A stretch of DNA of 64,000 nt from Alphaproteobacteria bacterium (GTDB taxonomy: Bacteria > Pseudomonadota > Alphaproteobacteria > CAAHEQ01 > UBA3637): contig JAFPYS010000004.1 of assembly GCA_017412085.1 (NCBI GenBank), positions 2,671 to 66,670 on the forward strand, read 5' to 3'. A program made the translations under genes and the position numbers. A model generated the notes under the pieces. The model did not search any database. It was not told the DNA's origin and saw only the letters and a program-made list of their open reading frames with translations. Shown here one piece after another: positions 54,015 to 59,372 of the stretch (within the stretch, counting starts at the first letter, position 1; every line of letters begins with the position of its first letter).

Positions 54015-57000
54015 GTGAAGAAACTTGTTTTATTCGCATTAGCTGTTTTAATTGGAACAAATGCTCTTGCGTTTGGCGGCGGGGGACATAGTCGATCTTC
54101 CAAACGGTATCAGTATGGCGTGGATGCGATTGGAACGCATGTGGATCCAGATCATCCAATCGTTCAGCCAGATTTTCGTGATTGCAAAGAGGACGAAACG
54201 GCAATTATTGGAAAATGTTGCCGAAATAATTTGGTTTATACAGAAGGCAACTCAGAAAAGTGCTGTGATCAAGAAGGATATGAATTACGGCAAGATGGAA
54301 CGTGTCAGGCCGTTAATGTGGTAATCAATTTTGTCCAAGAAGGAAATAACATCTTTAAATTCTTTTATACCACGAAAGAAAATGGGCAGGTGGCCGCAGG
54401 ATCTTGGAAGTTGGAATATAACATAGAAGATGGAACAATCCGTGTCACCGATTATTATGAAGAAGATGGTGTTATTAAGGAATATTTATGGGAAGCAAGT
54501 AGTTTGGGGCAGGTGGAAAACTCGCCTTTATACACAGGATCTGGTGGGCACAGTTGGTTGGATAAGTTACAACAGCTTTTTGGTGTGAAGAGCGCTTGGG
54601 CGGCCCCAGTTCGACCAGGGACAGACAGTGAGTATTGGCATAAAATTAAAACCGTTGAGGAATGTATTAGAAAGGCCGGCAGATGGGTCAATGGACGTTG
54701 TGAGTGTGATTGCCATGATGTGGAAAGTTTAAGTGAGGAAACAGTAACCGGTGAGCGTACGTGTTGTTCTCCTGTAGAAAAAGGAGAAAAATATCCTTAT
54801 TGTTCTGCTGTGAATGAAGAAGGATTATGCACGCATTATAGTTGTTGTACCGCGAAAGAACGAATTTCGGCAATGGGGAACAGGACGGCTATGCAGTTGT
54901 GTTGTGAACACAATGGAAGCAGTGATCAACGTGCCGCTTTCGCACAATACAATATTGAAAACGCCGATGCTTTGATTAAGCGTTGTTGCCCCGTGGGCAG
55001 CATTGTGAAAAAGGATGGAGTAGAATATTGTTGCGACAAAGAAAATTCATCCAACAAATGTGTTGCCAAATGTCCAAATTATGGTGTGCCAGGAAAGAAA
55101 AACGCAAATGTTTGTTGTAAGAACGGATTGGCGTTGGATAGTTTGGGCCAGTATACAAAATTAGATATTGAAAACTGTGATTGTCCTGTGCAAGATAGCA
55201 CTTTGGGCGATAAAGTGAGCGGAGAATGCTGTATGAATGGCTTCGCCTGGAATGAGGTATTGCAAAATTACACAAAAAGCAGTGCTTCCTGTTGTCATGA
55301 TTTACGCCCTTGGTACTATCACTTATCTGCGTGGACCACAGAAATTAATTATACAAAGGGCTATTGTTGCAGCGAAGGTTTTAATTCTATTAAAGAACAT
55401 ACGGTGCCGGAGTGTTGCGAAAGCGCTGGCGGTGTTGTCGATAATGGACACTGTTGTAAGGGGGAAAAAGATTTATGGGGACCCGTTGAGAACCAAAGAC
55501 ATTCTCAGACCTGCTGTGAGAGAATTGGAAAACCAATTGTGTGTGATGCCAGGACCACAGGGGTTGATTATCTTAAATTGGCCGAGGCGATTTATGATGC
55601 AATCCCAGGAGTGAGTAGTGTTATAGAAATTCCGGCGCAGTTAGTTGTTGCCGTGATTACATGGGATTGGAGAGAGTTGCCAATCGTGTCGGATATCATA
55701 AGTATTCGAAAAGCACTAACTGAAAGCGAGGTGGGAGAAGTCAAATGTATGCCGGATATGGTCAGTTGCTGTGCAGAACTGAATGGGCACGTTTGTAAGA
55801 CATTTGGGGAAGAGATTTGTGTTTCTAATGAGAAGGCTGGTTGTTGTCCAGAAGGATCTAAAGAAAATGAAGCTGGTACTGCTTGTATTTGCGAAGGAAA
55901 CGGACAAATGATCAGAGTCACTGACGAAAAGGGAGAGGTTGGTTATTCCTGTTGTACACGATTAATTGCAGTGAAGGATGGATTGGCTACTTGTTGTGAT
56001 GAGAATTTAGTTCCAAAGGGTCCCGAAAATGCACAAATTTGTTGTGGGGAAGATCAAGAAAATATCAACAACAAATGCGTTGGAGCATGTTCTGACGAGA
56101 ATGTGACCGAGGAATGTTGCACAGTCATGGGAGGAACATACGCAGTAGACAACGAGACGAACGAAATTGAATGTTGTGTTGATGAAGAAATAGCGGCAAA
56201 TTCGGGTTGGTTGCAACGCTTATTCGTGTCGCCGGCCTATGCCGCTACAACGTGTTATCGAGCTTGTAAACCAGGATACCAAAGGGACGAACAAAATAAA
56301 TGTATCGCAATAGAAGAATGTGAATCGCCGATGAGTTGGGACGATGAAAAACAAAAATGTATGTGTCCAGAAAATGTTGAGCCAACGGAAAAGGATGGCA
56401 AGAAGTATTGCTGCAATAATGGTGGAGAATGGGATCCAAACAGTCATAACGGGAACGGAGAGTATGATAAGGTAAATATTCCAGTTTGCGACTGCTATGG
56501 AACGCCGGCTCAAAACGGTTATTCGGGATGTTGTAGTGGTGGATATTATGATGATGGCTATAATAGGAGAGATGTGAATGGCAACACACATTGGAGTTTT
56601 TCGGGACAAAATGCCAAGGCATGTCCAGGACAATGTTCTGTCGGAACCTATACGGGATCTGGCCTGAATGCAGCGTGTTGTGATGAAAATGGTTTAGATG
56701 TTGTAAAGGACCAATTGTTTGGCCGTTCGGAGTTTAGCAAGTCAGCGGTTTGTTGCTCAAGCAATAACTACGCCTGTGTGGATGATTCAAACGAAGCGAC
56801 GTGTAAGTGTTGTGGCGAAAAGGCTAAGTATAGCACCAGCAATGGAGAATATTGTTGTGGTGACGAAACCGGATATGAATATGACAGCGAAGATAATCAT
56901 ATCTGTCAATGTTGTCCACAAGGGTATGCGTGCAGAGAAGAAAAAGGAGATGCGGCAATGTGCTGTGACGTAAACGGAACAGGTAAGAACGTGGCGGGGG

Positions 57001-59372: not shown

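What the first reader, a model, noticed from the sequence alone, without database searches (positions are those of the whole stretch)
54015..58250. Giant secreted protein built from about 40 CC-dipeptide units: an unassigned disulfide-rich repeat architecture
The 1785-aa ORF has a clean signal peptide. Over about 1400 residues it carries a recurring unit in which a Cys-Cys dipeptide is followed by 3-6 polar or Gly residues and further single Cys. Examples are KCCRNN, KCCDQEGY, RCCPVGS, YCCDKENS, VCCKNGLA, ECCMNGFA, YCCSEGFN, GCCPEGS, TCCDENL, ICCGEDQ, YCCNNGGE, GCCSGGYY, ACCDENGL, YCCGDETGY, QCCPQGYA, GCCLNGMY, ECCVDGQE and SCCPSGQ. I count about 42 CC by eye. A second motif, C[DG]CP (NCDCP, NCGCP, SCGCP, ACGCP), is interspersed. 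The spacing is irregular rather than a strict tandem DNA repeat, so this is an old, diverged array. It differs from CxxC-type surface proteins and from EGF-like patterns I know. Such a Cys density in a bacterial exported protein implies an extensive disulfide scaffold, such as a stalk, adhesin or host-mimicking matrix protein. The gene follows uvrC-pgsA with only a 26-nt gap.
Basis: seen in the sequence. Interest (0 to 1): 0.8.

Follow-up and report, generated by a model that had tools for sequence, protein, structure and literature searches.

The report
Bacterial di-cysteine ladder giant protein
A gut alphaproteobacterium encodes a 1785-residue exported protein that appears to be built as a long chain of small hairpins pinned together by about 70 disulfide bonds, an unannotated bacterial repeat family whose design resembles the galaxin proteins of coral skeletons, ending in a possible zinc protease domain.

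Summary
ORF 54015..59372 (+) encodes 1785 aa with a Sec signal peptide, 150 Cys and exactly 42 CC dipeptides (12.7 ± 3.1 expected from shuffles). The ORF runs 1.1 kb past the finding's end coordinate. That tail is a separate domain with an invariant HExxHxVD motif.

No Pfam, NCBIfam or PDB entry matches significantly. An exhaustive profile search of 1.84 billion proteins found only 23 relatives. They define a ~40-aa unit, CGCP[DE]GG-x(6-14)-CCK[ND]G[YF]x[WY]-x(~17), with 179 instances.

Correlated Cys loss across units shows that each di-Cys element's second Cys bonds to the first Cys of the next element. This makes a continuous ladder of sequence-consecutive disulfides. An AlphaFold2 model of three of the giant's units is confident (pLDDT 84.7). 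It puts each CC at the start of a tight β-hairpin and has no PDB analogue.

The same rule was proposed from AlphaFold models for animal galaxins and calcarins. Sequence membership in the galaxin family is not met (17.6 bits against a cutoff of 28).

Verdict: a new bacterial variant of the di-cysteine hairpin-ladder architecture, probably an oxidatively zipped extracellular rod carrying a putative zincin domain. Function is inferred, not shown.

The parts
54005..54008 (+). Shine-Dalgarno GGAG, 5 nt before the GTG start and within the 26-nt gap after the pgsA stop
54015..59372 (+). Whole ORF: 1785 aa plus stop. The mature protein is about 193 kDa with pI 4.6.
54015..54071 (+). Sec signal peptide, aa 1-19 (MKKLVLFALAVLIGTNALA), with predicted cleavage before FGGGG
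   Evidence: Read from the sequence. The N-terminus is conserved in P0002, P0004, P0006, P0008 and the L023 ORF.
54072..54305 (+). Conserved N-terminal leader module, aa 20-97: FGGGG, then ...VDP..P....FRDC, then a closed mini-ladder C57-x10-CC-x13-CC-x12-C97. This is the stretch that gives the weak Pfam Galaxin_repeat hit.
54306..54662 (+). Cys-free module, aa 98-216, ending in the motif WLDKLQQLFGVKSAWAA (about aa 181-197). It is shared with P0004, P0006 (two copies), P0008 and the L023 ORF.
54663..55544 (+). Di-Cys ladder segment 1, aa 217-510. It includes two canonical C..CP/CC units at aa 352-429 (nt 55068-55301), the stretch best conserved across the family.
55545..55745 (+). Cys-free, partly hydrophobic conserved segment, aa 511-577 (PGVSS..E.PA..V.AVI.W.WRELPIVSD). 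Role unknown.
55746..56177 (+). Di-Cys ladder segment 2, aa 578-721
56199..56249 (+). Second copy of the motif (N)W[LF]xRLFxxxAxAA, aa 729-745 (NSGWLQRLFVSPAYAAT). It recurs in P0002 (two copies), P0004, P0006 and the L023 ORF. Unexplained.
56253..58232 (+). Di-Cys ladder segment 3, aa 747-1406. Canonical units lie at aa 782-829 (nt 56358-56501) and aa 1002-1127 (nt 57018-57395). A CC-only run covers aa 1158-1351.
57006..57419 (+). The three-unit array that was modelled, aa 998-1135. AlphaFold2 gave pLDDT 84.7 and pTM 0.72. Each CC opens a β-hairpin with a 2-residue turn (CCK-NK-QAY, CCL-NG-MYN).
58233..59369 (+). C-terminal domain, aa 1407-1785, shared with P0014 (42% identity) and P0015 (21% identity)
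58527..58550 (+). HENVHRVD, aa 1505-1512: an invariant HExxHxVD motif and candidate zinc site
58620..58622 (+). Invariant Glu1536 in L[TS]E, 27 residues after the second His. It is a candidate third zinc ligand (gluzincin-like).

Best explanation
The gene encodes a Sec-exported, acidic, roughly 193-kDa protein. Its central 1,300 residues form a rod of small β-hairpins held together by a continuous ladder of disulfide bonds.

The building block is a di-cysteine element (CC, or C-x(1-3)-C followed by Pro). The canonical ~40-aa unit is two such elements: CGCP[DE]GG-x(6-14)-CCK[ND]G[YF]x[WY]-x(~17). The second Cys of each element bonds to the first Cys of the next element, so every disulfide joins cysteines that are consecutive in the sequence.

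Inferred mechanism: as the chain emerges from the Sec translocon, a DsbA-type oxidase can zip up the ladder vectorially, without needing an isomerase. The product would be a protease-resistant extracellular stalk suited to the gut lumen.

The stalk carries two conserved Cys-free modules. At its C-terminus it carries an orphan domain with an invariant HExxHxVD...E signature, most likely a zinc metallopeptidase head.

Relatives use the same unit as small secreted arrays and as C-terminal extensions of type-IV-pilin-like proteins. This suggests the unit is a general surface-display or adhesive scaffold.

Shown: the ORF, signal peptide, repeat statistics, family, Cys conservation, correlated Cys loss and a confident hairpin model. 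Inferred: actual disulfide formation, extracellular location, protease activity and biological role.
For: - **Repeat statistics:** 42 CC against 12.7 ± 3.1 in shuffles. There are 57 di-Cys elements with a median gap of 18 aa. Gly follows 28 of 42 CC at +2 to +5, against 15.1 ± 3.0 at random positions.
- **Family:** 23 proteins in 1.84 billion representatives. A unit HMM finds 179 instances in 24 proteins, 6 of them in the giant.
- **Constraint:** 61 of 61 Cys are conserved against P0002 over 600 columns, with 45% identity elsewhere.
- **Disulfide map from correlated loss:** loss of CC-Cys2 always comes with loss of Cys1 of the next CxC (P0009, P0013, P0018, P0024, P0021). Loss of CxC-Cys2 comes with loss of CC-Cys1 (P0022, P0023). 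Ten first-in-array units lack CxC-Cys1, and the last unit of P0019 lacks CC-Cys2.
- **One element type:** the spacing inside the element varies from 0 to 3 residues (CCP 76, CxCP 155, CxxCP 19, CxxxCP 15), so CC and CxC are one kind of element.
- **Capped runs:** single Cys cap CC runs at 57/97, 510 and 578.
- **Structure model:** AlphaFold2 gave pLDDT 84.7 and pTM 0.72, with CC at the start of 3+2+3 hairpins.
- **C-terminal motif:** HExxHxVD and E1536 are invariant in three proteins down to 21% identity.
- **Second full-length orthologue:** L023 has the same N-terminus, ladder and HExxH domain, broken only by an assembly gap.
- **Pilin-like fusions:** P0016 and P0020.
Against: - No coordinates were available, so S-S geometry in the model was not checked.
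- The model used a pseudo-MSA of repeat windows, which can inflate confidence.
- The disulfide map rests on about 8 internal and about 11 terminal loss events, all in canonical units. Extension to the CC-only runs is by analogy.
- The Cys count in some segments is odd (35 in aa 217-510), so the pairing cannot be perfectly regular.
- No Dsb gene is in the 64-kb window, and the rest of the genome was not available.
- The organism lives in an anoxic gut.
- The C-terminal domain has no match to any peptidase family or structure, and its model failed (pLDDT 38).
- No secretion system or anchor for crossing the outer membrane was identified.
- One near-identical 775-bp contig carries a premature stop.
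Confidence: 0.55

Rival explanations
1. It is a polymorphic-toxin or effector type protein. The conserved N-terminal module directs export, the ladder is only a delivery stalk, and the variable C-terminus is the payload. Here that payload is an HExxH metallopeptidase aimed at competing bacteria or host cells.
For: Relatives share the N-terminal module but have different C-termini: P0002, P0004 and P0006 lack the HExxH domain, while the giant, P0014 and P0015 have it, and P0015's copy is very divergent. The same window holds another effector-like metallopeptidase (DUF6782/M91-like) and a weak VirB6/TrbL-like protein.
Against: No immunity-like small ORF follows the gene: there is a 194-nt gap and then an MFS transporter. 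No known toxin or trafficking domain is detected. A Sec signal peptide with an oxidised ladder fits periplasmic or extracellular folding rather than injection through a narrow channel.
Confidence: 0.2
2. It is a true member of the galaxin / galaxin-like family (PF24748, PTHR34490). It would either share ancestry with the eukaryotic proteins or have been acquired from a eukaryote, and would act as a host-matrix mimic.
For: There is a weak Pfam Galaxin_repeat hit at aa 67-100 (E = 0.0037, 17.6 bits). The design rules match: secreted, acidic, regularly spaced di-Cys, hairpins and a ladder. PANTHER already lists archaeal members.
Against: The hit is below the gathering score (28 bits). It appears in only 1 of 10 windows and in 0 of 23 relatives. 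The exhaustive profile search returned only the 23-member family, whose members carry bacterial-type signal peptides or pilin-like leaders. The gene's GC content equals that of its surroundings. Spacing is wider (median 18 aa against 10-15), and alternate elements are CxCP, which is not a galaxin feature.
Confidence: 0.1
3. The cysteines are not disulfide-bonded but bind metal, making the protein a giant metallothionein-like or Fe/Zn/Cu-sequestering protein. CC and CxC are classic thiolate-cluster motifs, and the habitat is anoxic.
For: CC and CxC motifs are present, the protein is acidic, and relatives come from gut MAGs.
Against: Cys content is 8.4%, far below metallothioneins, and the protein is rich in aromatic residues (Y+F+W about 8%). 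Cys are lost strictly in pairs of sequence neighbours, not in groups of 3-4. The β-hairpin model is confident, with conserved turn residues. The protein has a Sec signal peptide.
Confidence: 0.07
4. It is a polyprotein precursor. It would be cut at the recurring W[LF]xRLFxxxAxAA motifs, perhaps by its own HExxH domain, into several independent Cys-rich products.
For: The motif ends in an AxA-like site and recurs at module boundaries in the giant (aa ~181-197 and 729-745) and in P0002, P0004, P0006 and the L023 ORF.
Against: There are only two copies in 1785 aa, and P0002 has the motif but no HExxH domain. Under consecutive pairing, C721 would bond across the motif to C747. There is no evidence of processing.
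Confidence: 0.05
5. The ORF is a decaying or unexpressed gene, so the pattern has no present function.
For: The upstream uvrC carries a frameshift. A 99.2%-identical contig has a stop at codon 1296 and a 5:1 ratio of non-synonymous to synonymous changes.
Against: The frame is open for 5.36 kb and has a good ribosome-binding site. Orthologues of 2951 aa and at least ~2370 aa are also open. All 61 Cys are conserved at 45% background identity. The differences in the short contig are 5 of 6 G>T/C>A, typical of damage artefacts.
Confidence: 0.05

Closest known systems
Galaxins, galaxin-like proteins and sponge calcarins (Pfam PF24748 Galaxin_repeat; PANTHER PTHR34490)
   Same: Both are secreted and acidic (pI about 4.5-4.6). 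Both have long runs of regularly spaced di-cysteines, capped by single Cys. In AlphaFold models, each di-Cys opens a short β-hairpin with a 2-residue turn, and the first Cys of an element bonds to the second Cys of the preceding one (PMC12419799; compare). Amgalaxin-like 1 alternates one CC with a C-x3-C (PMC2726143), as this family alternates CC with C-x(1-3)-C.
   Different: There is no significant sequence match: 17.6 bits against a cutoff of 28, in one window only, and none in 23 relatives. The host is bacterial, whereas listed members are animals, other eukaryotes and a few Methanomicrobiales. Spacing is wider (median 18 aa). The family has its own signature (CGCPDGG...CCK[ND]G[YF]xW). 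The ladder is far longer (57 elements against 10-23) and is embedded in a multi-module protein with an HExxH domain. There is no link to biomineralisation.
Granulin / epithelin module (Pfam PF00396)
   Same: By my own knowledge, it is the solved-structure archetype of stacked β-hairpins pinned by disulfides from CC doublets. Local motifs such as CCPxG also occur here (RCCPVGS, GCCPEGS, QCCPQGYAC, SCCPSGQ).
   Different: Granulin is a closed 12-Cys module with fixed short spacings (5-8 aa). There is no Pfam Granulin hit even at E <= 10, no PDB sequence hit and no Foldseek hit.
EGF-like / cEGF and other small disulfide-rich extracellular repeats
   Same: They are extracellular, Cys-rich tandem modules. 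The best (non-significant) Foldseek hits are EGF-type: Pfs25 and factor IX/Xa EGF. cEGF gives E = 0.027 in two relatives.
   Different: EGF has 6 Cys in a 1-3, 2-4, 5-6 pattern within a closed domain. Here there are 4 Cys per unit, with inter-unit bonds. No match is significant (best E = 1.3, TM below 0.25).
Zincin metallopeptidases (HExxH), gluzincin type
   Same: The C-terminal domain has an invariant HExxH and an invariant Glu 27 residues downstream.
   Different: There is no match to any Pfam or NCBIfam peptidase family, any PDB sequence, or the DUF6782/M91-like protein in the same window. The fold could not be modelled (pLDDT 38).

Membership tests
Galaxin-like repeats (PF24748 / PTHR34490) | Match to the Pfam model at or above its gathering score (28 bits) | tested here: not met
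   The best hit is 17.6 bits, E = 0.0037, at aa 67-100 only. The other nine windows give nothing at E <= 10. The whole protein gives nothing. None of 23 relatives hits at E <= 1.
Galaxin-like repeats (PF24748 / PTHR34490) | Secreted protein with a run of at least 10 regularly spaced di-cysteines, capped by single Cys | tested here: met
   A signal peptide is present. There are 42 CC and 57 di-Cys elements, with single Cys caps at 57/97, 510 and 578. The spacing is wider, at a median of 18 aa (IQR 13-21.5), against the 10-15 aa reported for galaxins and calcarins.
Galaxin-like repeats (PF24748 / PTHR34490) | Each di-Cys opens a β-hairpin, and the first Cys bonds to the second Cys of the preceding element (a ladder) | tested here: met
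   DSSP on the AlphaFold2 model (pLDDT 84.7) shows CC at the start of hairpins with 2-residue turns. Correlated Cys loss gives the same pairing rule. This was tested on canonical units only, and no coordinates or experiment were available.
Galaxin-like repeats (PF24748 / PTHR34490) | Detectable sequence homology to eukaryotic galaxins | tested here: not met
   An exhaustive HMM search of 1.84 billion representatives returned 23 proteins, all belonging to the CGCP/CC family and carrying bacterial-type leaders. A direct profile-profile comparison with galaxin sequences could not be run, because none were at hand.
Granulin (PF00396) | 12-Cys module C-x5-6-C-x5-CC-x8-CC-x6-CC-x5-CC-x4-C-x5-6-C | tested here: not met
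   The Cys spacing string does not fit. There is no Pfam hit at E <= 10 and no PDB sequence or fold hit.
EGF-like domains | 6-Cys closed domain recognised by EGF, cEGF or hEGF models | tested here: not met
   There is no hit in the giant. cEGF gives E = 0.027 in 2 of 23 relatives. The best Foldseek hit has E = 1.3.
Zincin metallopeptidase (C-terminal domain) | Conserved HExxH on a helix, plus a third zinc ligand | tested here: inconclusive
   HExxHxVD and E1536 are invariant in 3 sequences. The structural context is unknown because the model failed (pLDDT 38).
Zincin metallopeptidase (C-terminal domain) | Match to a described peptidase family or structure | tested here: not met
   Pfam and NCBIfam give none. 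A PDB profile search gives 0 hits at E <= 10. hhalign against the window's DUF6782/M91-like protein gives probability 0.1%.
Metallothionein-like metal-thiolate proteins | Very high Cys content (15-30%), few aromatic residues, cluster-forming CxC/CC/CxxC motifs | tested here: not met
   Cys is 8.4%, with Y 4.7%, F 2.0% and W 1.4%. Cys are lost in pairs, and the hairpin model is structured.
Polymorphic toxin systems | Conserved N-terminal region and repeats, a variable C-terminal toxin, and an adjacent immunity gene | tested here: inconclusive
   C-termini do vary among relatives. No small ORF follows the giant gene: the next gene is an MFS transporter 194 nt downstream.
Dsb-dependent oxidative folding substrate | A DsbA/DsbB (or VKOR) oxidase encoded in the genome | not testable with these tools
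   Only the 64-kb window is available. Its CPHC/CPYC motifs lie in RNase E, PriA and a zinc-ribbon ORF. The source genome is not among the GTDB representatives that were scanned.

The most novel reading that the evidence does not exclude
Bacteria independently invented, or anciently share, the galaxin-type di-cysteine hairpin ladder. In this family every bond joins sequence-consecutive cysteines, so the rod can be zipped up co-translocationally by DsbA alone. This would yield ~60-rung, ~75-disulfide extracellular fibres, an oxidative-folding load I believe is without precedent for a bacterial protein. The same module would be reused as a pilus extension, as small secreted arrays and as the stalk for a new zincin family in gut Alphaproteobacteria.
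Probability: 0.3. Interest if true: 0.72.

Novelty: new variant of a known kind. Interest (0 to 1): 0.55.

Why it matters
If the ladder is real, this is a Pfam-worthy new bacterial repeat family: 23 proteins and 179 units, none annotated. To my knowledge it would also be one of the most disulfide-dense large proteins known in bacteria.

It gives a bacterial system, in principle expressible in E. coli, for testing the structure so far only predicted for coral galaxins and sponge calcarins. None of those has a solved structure.

It also poses a concrete question about oxidative folding in anoxic-gut bacteria. Its 'consecutive-cysteine' design makes a testable prediction: DsbA should be sufficient and DsbC dispensable.

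The protease-resistant rod, the pilin fusions and the orphan HExxH domain point to an unexplored class of surface structures in uncultured gut Alphaproteobacteria.

Tried and rejected
- **Family libraries:** Pfam and NCBIfam on the whole protein and on ten 160-230-aa windows gave only sub-threshold noise: Galaxin_repeat 17.6 bits, CLIP_SPH_Scar, DUF4213, DUF4874, BRCA2.
- **PDB by sequence:** searches with the whole protein, the CC-only run, the unit-array profile and the C-terminal profile gave nothing significant. The GFP and RecR hits (E 0.01-0.4) are local chance matches.
- **Foldseek:** the good model has no match at E <= 0.001 in either PDB or BFVD.
- **C-terminal domain model:** AlphaFold2 with 3 sequences gave pLDDT 38, so it was not used for fold search.
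- **Window's other metallopeptidase:** hhalign of the C-terminal domain against the DUF6782/M91-like protein showed no relation.
- **GTDB genome scan:** a pattern scan for relatives of the giant found none, but exact-pattern seeding may miss divergent copies.
- **Word-indexed searches:** the searches with the C-terminal domain and with the unit profile added only a 99% fragment and two small proteins.
- **dN/dS:** the near-identical fragment L026 was rejected as a source because its changes look like G>T damage.
- **Dsb genes:** a motif search in the window found none.
- **Literature:** searches for bacterial galaxin-like or disulfide-ladder proteins found nothing relevant.
- **Transmembrane reading of aa 529-550:** considered and rejected, because Cys-rich ladder lies on both sides of the segment.
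Full report
**1. Observation**

The ORF is real and larger than the finding's interval: 54015..59372 (+), 1785 aa, GTG start. A GGAG sits 5 nt upstream, and the start lies 26 nt after the pgsA stop. 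The N-terminus MKKLVLFALAVLIGTNALA|FGGGG is a textbook Sec signal.

The protein has 150 Cys (8.4%) and exactly 42 CC dipeptides between aa 68 and 1351. Shuffling the residues of that region gives 12.7 ± 3.1 CC, with a maximum of 25 in 2000 trials. A Gly follows 28 of the 42 CC at +2 to +5, against 15.1 ± 3.0 for random positions. C[DG]CP occurs four times and CxC eleven times.

**2. Organism and context**

The window carries RNase E, PriA, HisS, a DacA-like carboxypeptidase with a SPOR domain, uvrC and pgsA.

PriA is 88% identical to MAGs named 'Alphaproteobacteria bacterium UBA3650' and 'SGB_7547'. It is 63-70% identical to MAGs from buffalo, sheep, yak and roe-deer guts. The source is therefore an uncultured gut alphaproteobacterium.

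The gene's GC content (0.434) is close to the window's (0.413), and contigs carrying relatives have 0.38-0.44. Nothing suggests recent foreign origin.

**3. Not in any library, and a very small family**

- Pfam and NCBIfam give nothing for the whole protein.
- Ten overlapping windows give only one borderline hit: PF24748 Galaxin_repeat, E = 0.0037, 17.6 bits against a cutoff of 28, at aa 67-100.
- PDB sequences give nothing significant.
- The 5.8-billion-cluster search found one homologue, P0002 (2951 aa, 41% identity over aa 233-1109).
- An exhaustive HMM search of 1.84 billion representatives, using the giant/P0002 alignment, found 23 proteins at E <= 0.001.
- None of the 23 matches any Pfam or NCBIfam family.

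**4. Anatomy of the family**

The relatives make the repeat legible.

A ~40-aa unit, CGCP[DE]GG-x(6-14)-CCK[ND]G[YF]x[WY]-x(~17), was extracted 91 times by pattern and turned into an HMM. The consensus is CGCPDGGEPSEGGGKVCCKDGYAYDDDTEKYDEV. The invariant positions are C1, C3, P4, C17 and C18. The strongly conserved ones are G2, G6, G21, Y/W24 and Y31. The HMM finds 179 instances in 24 proteins.

The giant has six canonical units, at aa 352-387, 388-429, 782-829, 1002-1047, 1049-1084 and 1091-1127. The rest of its ladder consists of degenerate or CC-only elements.

Counting any two Cys within 4 residues as one element, the giant has 57 di-Cys elements: 40 with spacing 0, 11 with spacing 1, 1 with spacing 2 and 5 with spacing 3. 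It also has 21 single Cys. The median gap between elements is 18 aa, IQR 13-21.5.

Across the family, the element before Pro occurs as CCP (76), CxCP (155), CxxCP (19) and CxxxCP (15). CC and CxC are therefore variants of one element, and the 40-aa unit is two hairpin elements.

**5. Disulfide map**

I could not read the model's coordinates, so I used correlated Cys loss.

- Whenever the second Cys of a CC is lost, the first Cys of the following CxC is lost too: P0009 FCQKGG then LGCP, P0013 FCQKNG then LGCP, P0018 NCIKNG then YGCP, P0024 VCLKNG then YGCP.
- Whenever the second Cys of CxC is lost, the first Cys of the same unit's CC is lost: P0023 CGRP...WCNDGY and P0022 CGYP...WCKDGY.
- P0021 shows both losses together.
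- Ten arrays begin with a unit lacking the first Cys (xCPxGG).
- The last unit of P0019 lacks the last Cys.

The rule is that the second Cys of each element bonds to the first Cys of the next, giving a continuous ladder. In the giant, single Cys cap CC runs as the rule predicts. The N-terminal leader is a closed C57-x10-CC-x13-CC-x12-C97 mini-ladder, and C510 and C578 cap the segments on either side of a Cys-free insert.

Against P0002, all 61 Cys of the first 600 aligned columns are conserved, while other positions are 45% identical.

**6. Structure model**

I ran AlphaFold2 on the giant's own three-unit array (aa 998-1135) with a pseudo-MSA of 50 three-unit windows from the family. It gave pLDDT 84.7 and pTM 0.72.

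DSSP places each CC at the start of a 3+2+3 β-hairpin (CCK-NK-QAY, CCL-NG-MYN). A second hairpin or extended segment follows, and the CGCP sits in a short turn.

Foldseek finds no analogue in the PDB (best E = 1.3, EGF-type, TM below 0.25) or in BFVD.

**7. Comparison with known families**

The closest known design is that of galaxins and calcarins. These are secreted, acidic proteins with 10-23 di-Cys spaced 10-15 aa apart and capped by single Cys. AlphaFold predicts that each di-Cys starts a four-residue hairpin with a two-residue turn, and that the first Cys bonds to the second Cys of the preceding hairpin (PMC12419799). Amgalaxin-like 1 has one CC plus a C-x3-C per repeat (PMC2726143).

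PANTHER PTHR34490 covers animals, other eukaryotes and a few 190-aa Methanomicrobiales proteins. No bacterial family is listed.

The present family therefore works like a galaxin, but it fails the membership tests by sequence. Granulin, EGF and metallothionein are also excluded (see the membership table).

**8. Other modules**

- **aa 20-97:** a leader conserved in P0002, P0004, P0006, P0008 and the L023 ORF.
- **aa 98-216:** a Cys-free module, ending in WLDKLQQLFGVKSAWAA.
- **aa 511-577:** a Cys-free, partly hydrophobic, highly conserved insert.
- **aa 729-745:** a second W[LF]xRLFxxxAxAA motif.
- **aa 1407-1785:** a C-terminal domain shared with P0014 (42% identity) and P0015 (21% identity). 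HExxHxVD and a Glu 27 residues downstream are invariant.

The C-terminal domain has no relative in Pfam, NCBIfam or PDB. It is unrelated to the window's own DUF6782/M91-like protein. Its model failed with pLDDT 38. Its assignment as a zincin rests on the motif alone.

**9. Architectures of relatives**

L023 shows that P0014 is the C-terminal part of a gene of at least ~2,370 aa. An upstream ORF has the same signal peptide, FGGGG leader, Cys-free module and ladder. It is separated from P0014 only by a run of N that sits inside a repeat found on both sides of the gap. The full architecture is therefore conserved in a second organism.

Other members fall into three groups:
- small signal-peptide proteins made only of units (P0009, P0011, P0013, P0018 and others);
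- proteins with other C-termini (P0002, P0004, P0006);
- two proteins with a type-IV-pilin-like leader, GRSMVEMLGVLAIIGVLSVGG, followed by units (P0016, P0020).

The genomic neighbourhood is not conserved: secE-nusG, an SNF transporter, or rpsD/fliG.

**10. Mechanism (inferred)**

Every bond of the ladder joins sequence-consecutive cysteines. A DsbA-type oxidase acting on the chain as it leaves SecYEG could therefore close the ladder vectorially, without isomerisation. This uses established knowledge of E. coli DsbA, which I did not test here.

The result would be a stiff, protease-resistant, acidic rod that presents the Cys-free modules and the putative zincin head. The pilin fusions and the unit-only secreted proteins suggest a display or adhesion role for the unit.

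**11. Caveats**

- No Dsb gene lies in the window, and the rest of the genome was unavailable.
- The pseudo-MSA may inflate confidence in the model.
- The pairing map comes from canonical units only.
- Some segments have odd Cys counts.
- A 775-bp contig that is 99.2% identical has a TAG at codon 1296, but 5 of its 6 differences are G>T or C>A, typical of sequencing damage.

**12. Verdict**

This is a new bacterial variant of a known architectural kind, the di-cysteine hairpin ladder. It defines an unannotated repeat family plus an orphan HExxH domain. Interest is moderate: the structure claim is well supported but untested experimentally, and the function is inferred.

Noticed in passing
window 51443-53247 (frameshift near 52003-52006): uvrC is split into two ORFs by a single-base frameshift. 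Read one frame over...GA TAT GCA GCA ATA GCT GCC GAA GTT CGG GCT TTT ATG ACA GGG gives the expected YAAIAAEVRAFMTG. This is either an assembly error or a real pseudogene.
   Followed up: partly
L026 1-760 (= window 57873-58632): A 775-bp contig from another sample is 99.2% identical but has TAG at codon 1296 of the giant gene. Five of its six differences are G>T or C>A, which suggests oxidative-damage or low-coverage errors.
   Followed up: partly
window 9823-11319 (-): A 498-aa protein matches DUF6782 (putative metallopeptidase, 32.8 bits, above cutoff) and weakly matches Peptidase_M91 and SprT-like. This is an effector-type HExxH protein, unrelated to the giant's C-terminal domain.
   Followed up: partly
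window 16449-22323 (+): Three consecutive large ORFs (701, 442 and 808 aa) have no NCBIfam or Pfam family, except a sub-threshold TrbL/VirB6 hit in the third (E = 7e-5, 23.1 bits against a cutoff of 25.9). They may be a remnant or divergent type IV secretion component.
   Followed up: no
window 62130-63386 (+): A 418-aa protein has a weak match to the radical-SAM (viperin-family) model (E = 1.5e-8, far below cutoff) and a C-terminal CPSCCEECC cluster. No Pfam hit.
   Followed up: no
window 54072-54086 (aa 20-24) and relatives: The sequence FGGGG (up to G8 in P0008) lies immediately after the predicted signal-peptide cleavage site. It is conserved in all six giant-type proteins. Its role is unknown, possibly a sorting or anchoring cue.
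   Followed up: no
window 54555-54605 and 56199-56249 (aa ~181-197 and 729-745): The motif (N)W[LF]xRLFxxxAxAA recurs at module boundaries in the giant, P0002 (two copies), P0004, P0006 and the L023 ORF. It resembles the end of a signal peptide. Whether it is a processing site is unknown.
   Followed up: partly
window 55545-55745 (aa 511-577): A Cys-free insert is highly conserved against P0002 and P0004. It has a hydrophobic stretch (Kyte-Doolittle 1.8 around aa 530), the only one in the protein besides the signal peptide.
   Followed up: no
P0004 (L022), P0002 (L001), L023 about 2900-3500: Relatives carry arrays of near-identical ~27-aa repeats (EPEGGCGTGKSWSPSxCACxCDNS). This is a second, recently amplified Cys-rich repeat type. 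It is absent as an array from the giant, and it caused the assembly gap in L023.
   Followed up: no
L024 124-3375: The pilin-like family member P0016 is followed by a lipoprotein-like ORF (205 aa, LLSVGC lipobox) and another secreted Cys-rich protein (269 aa). rpsD and fliG lie nearby.
   Followed up: no
window 49048-50127 (-): A 359-aa signal-peptide protein upstream of the DacA-like gene has no family in NCBIfam or Pfam.
   Followed up: no
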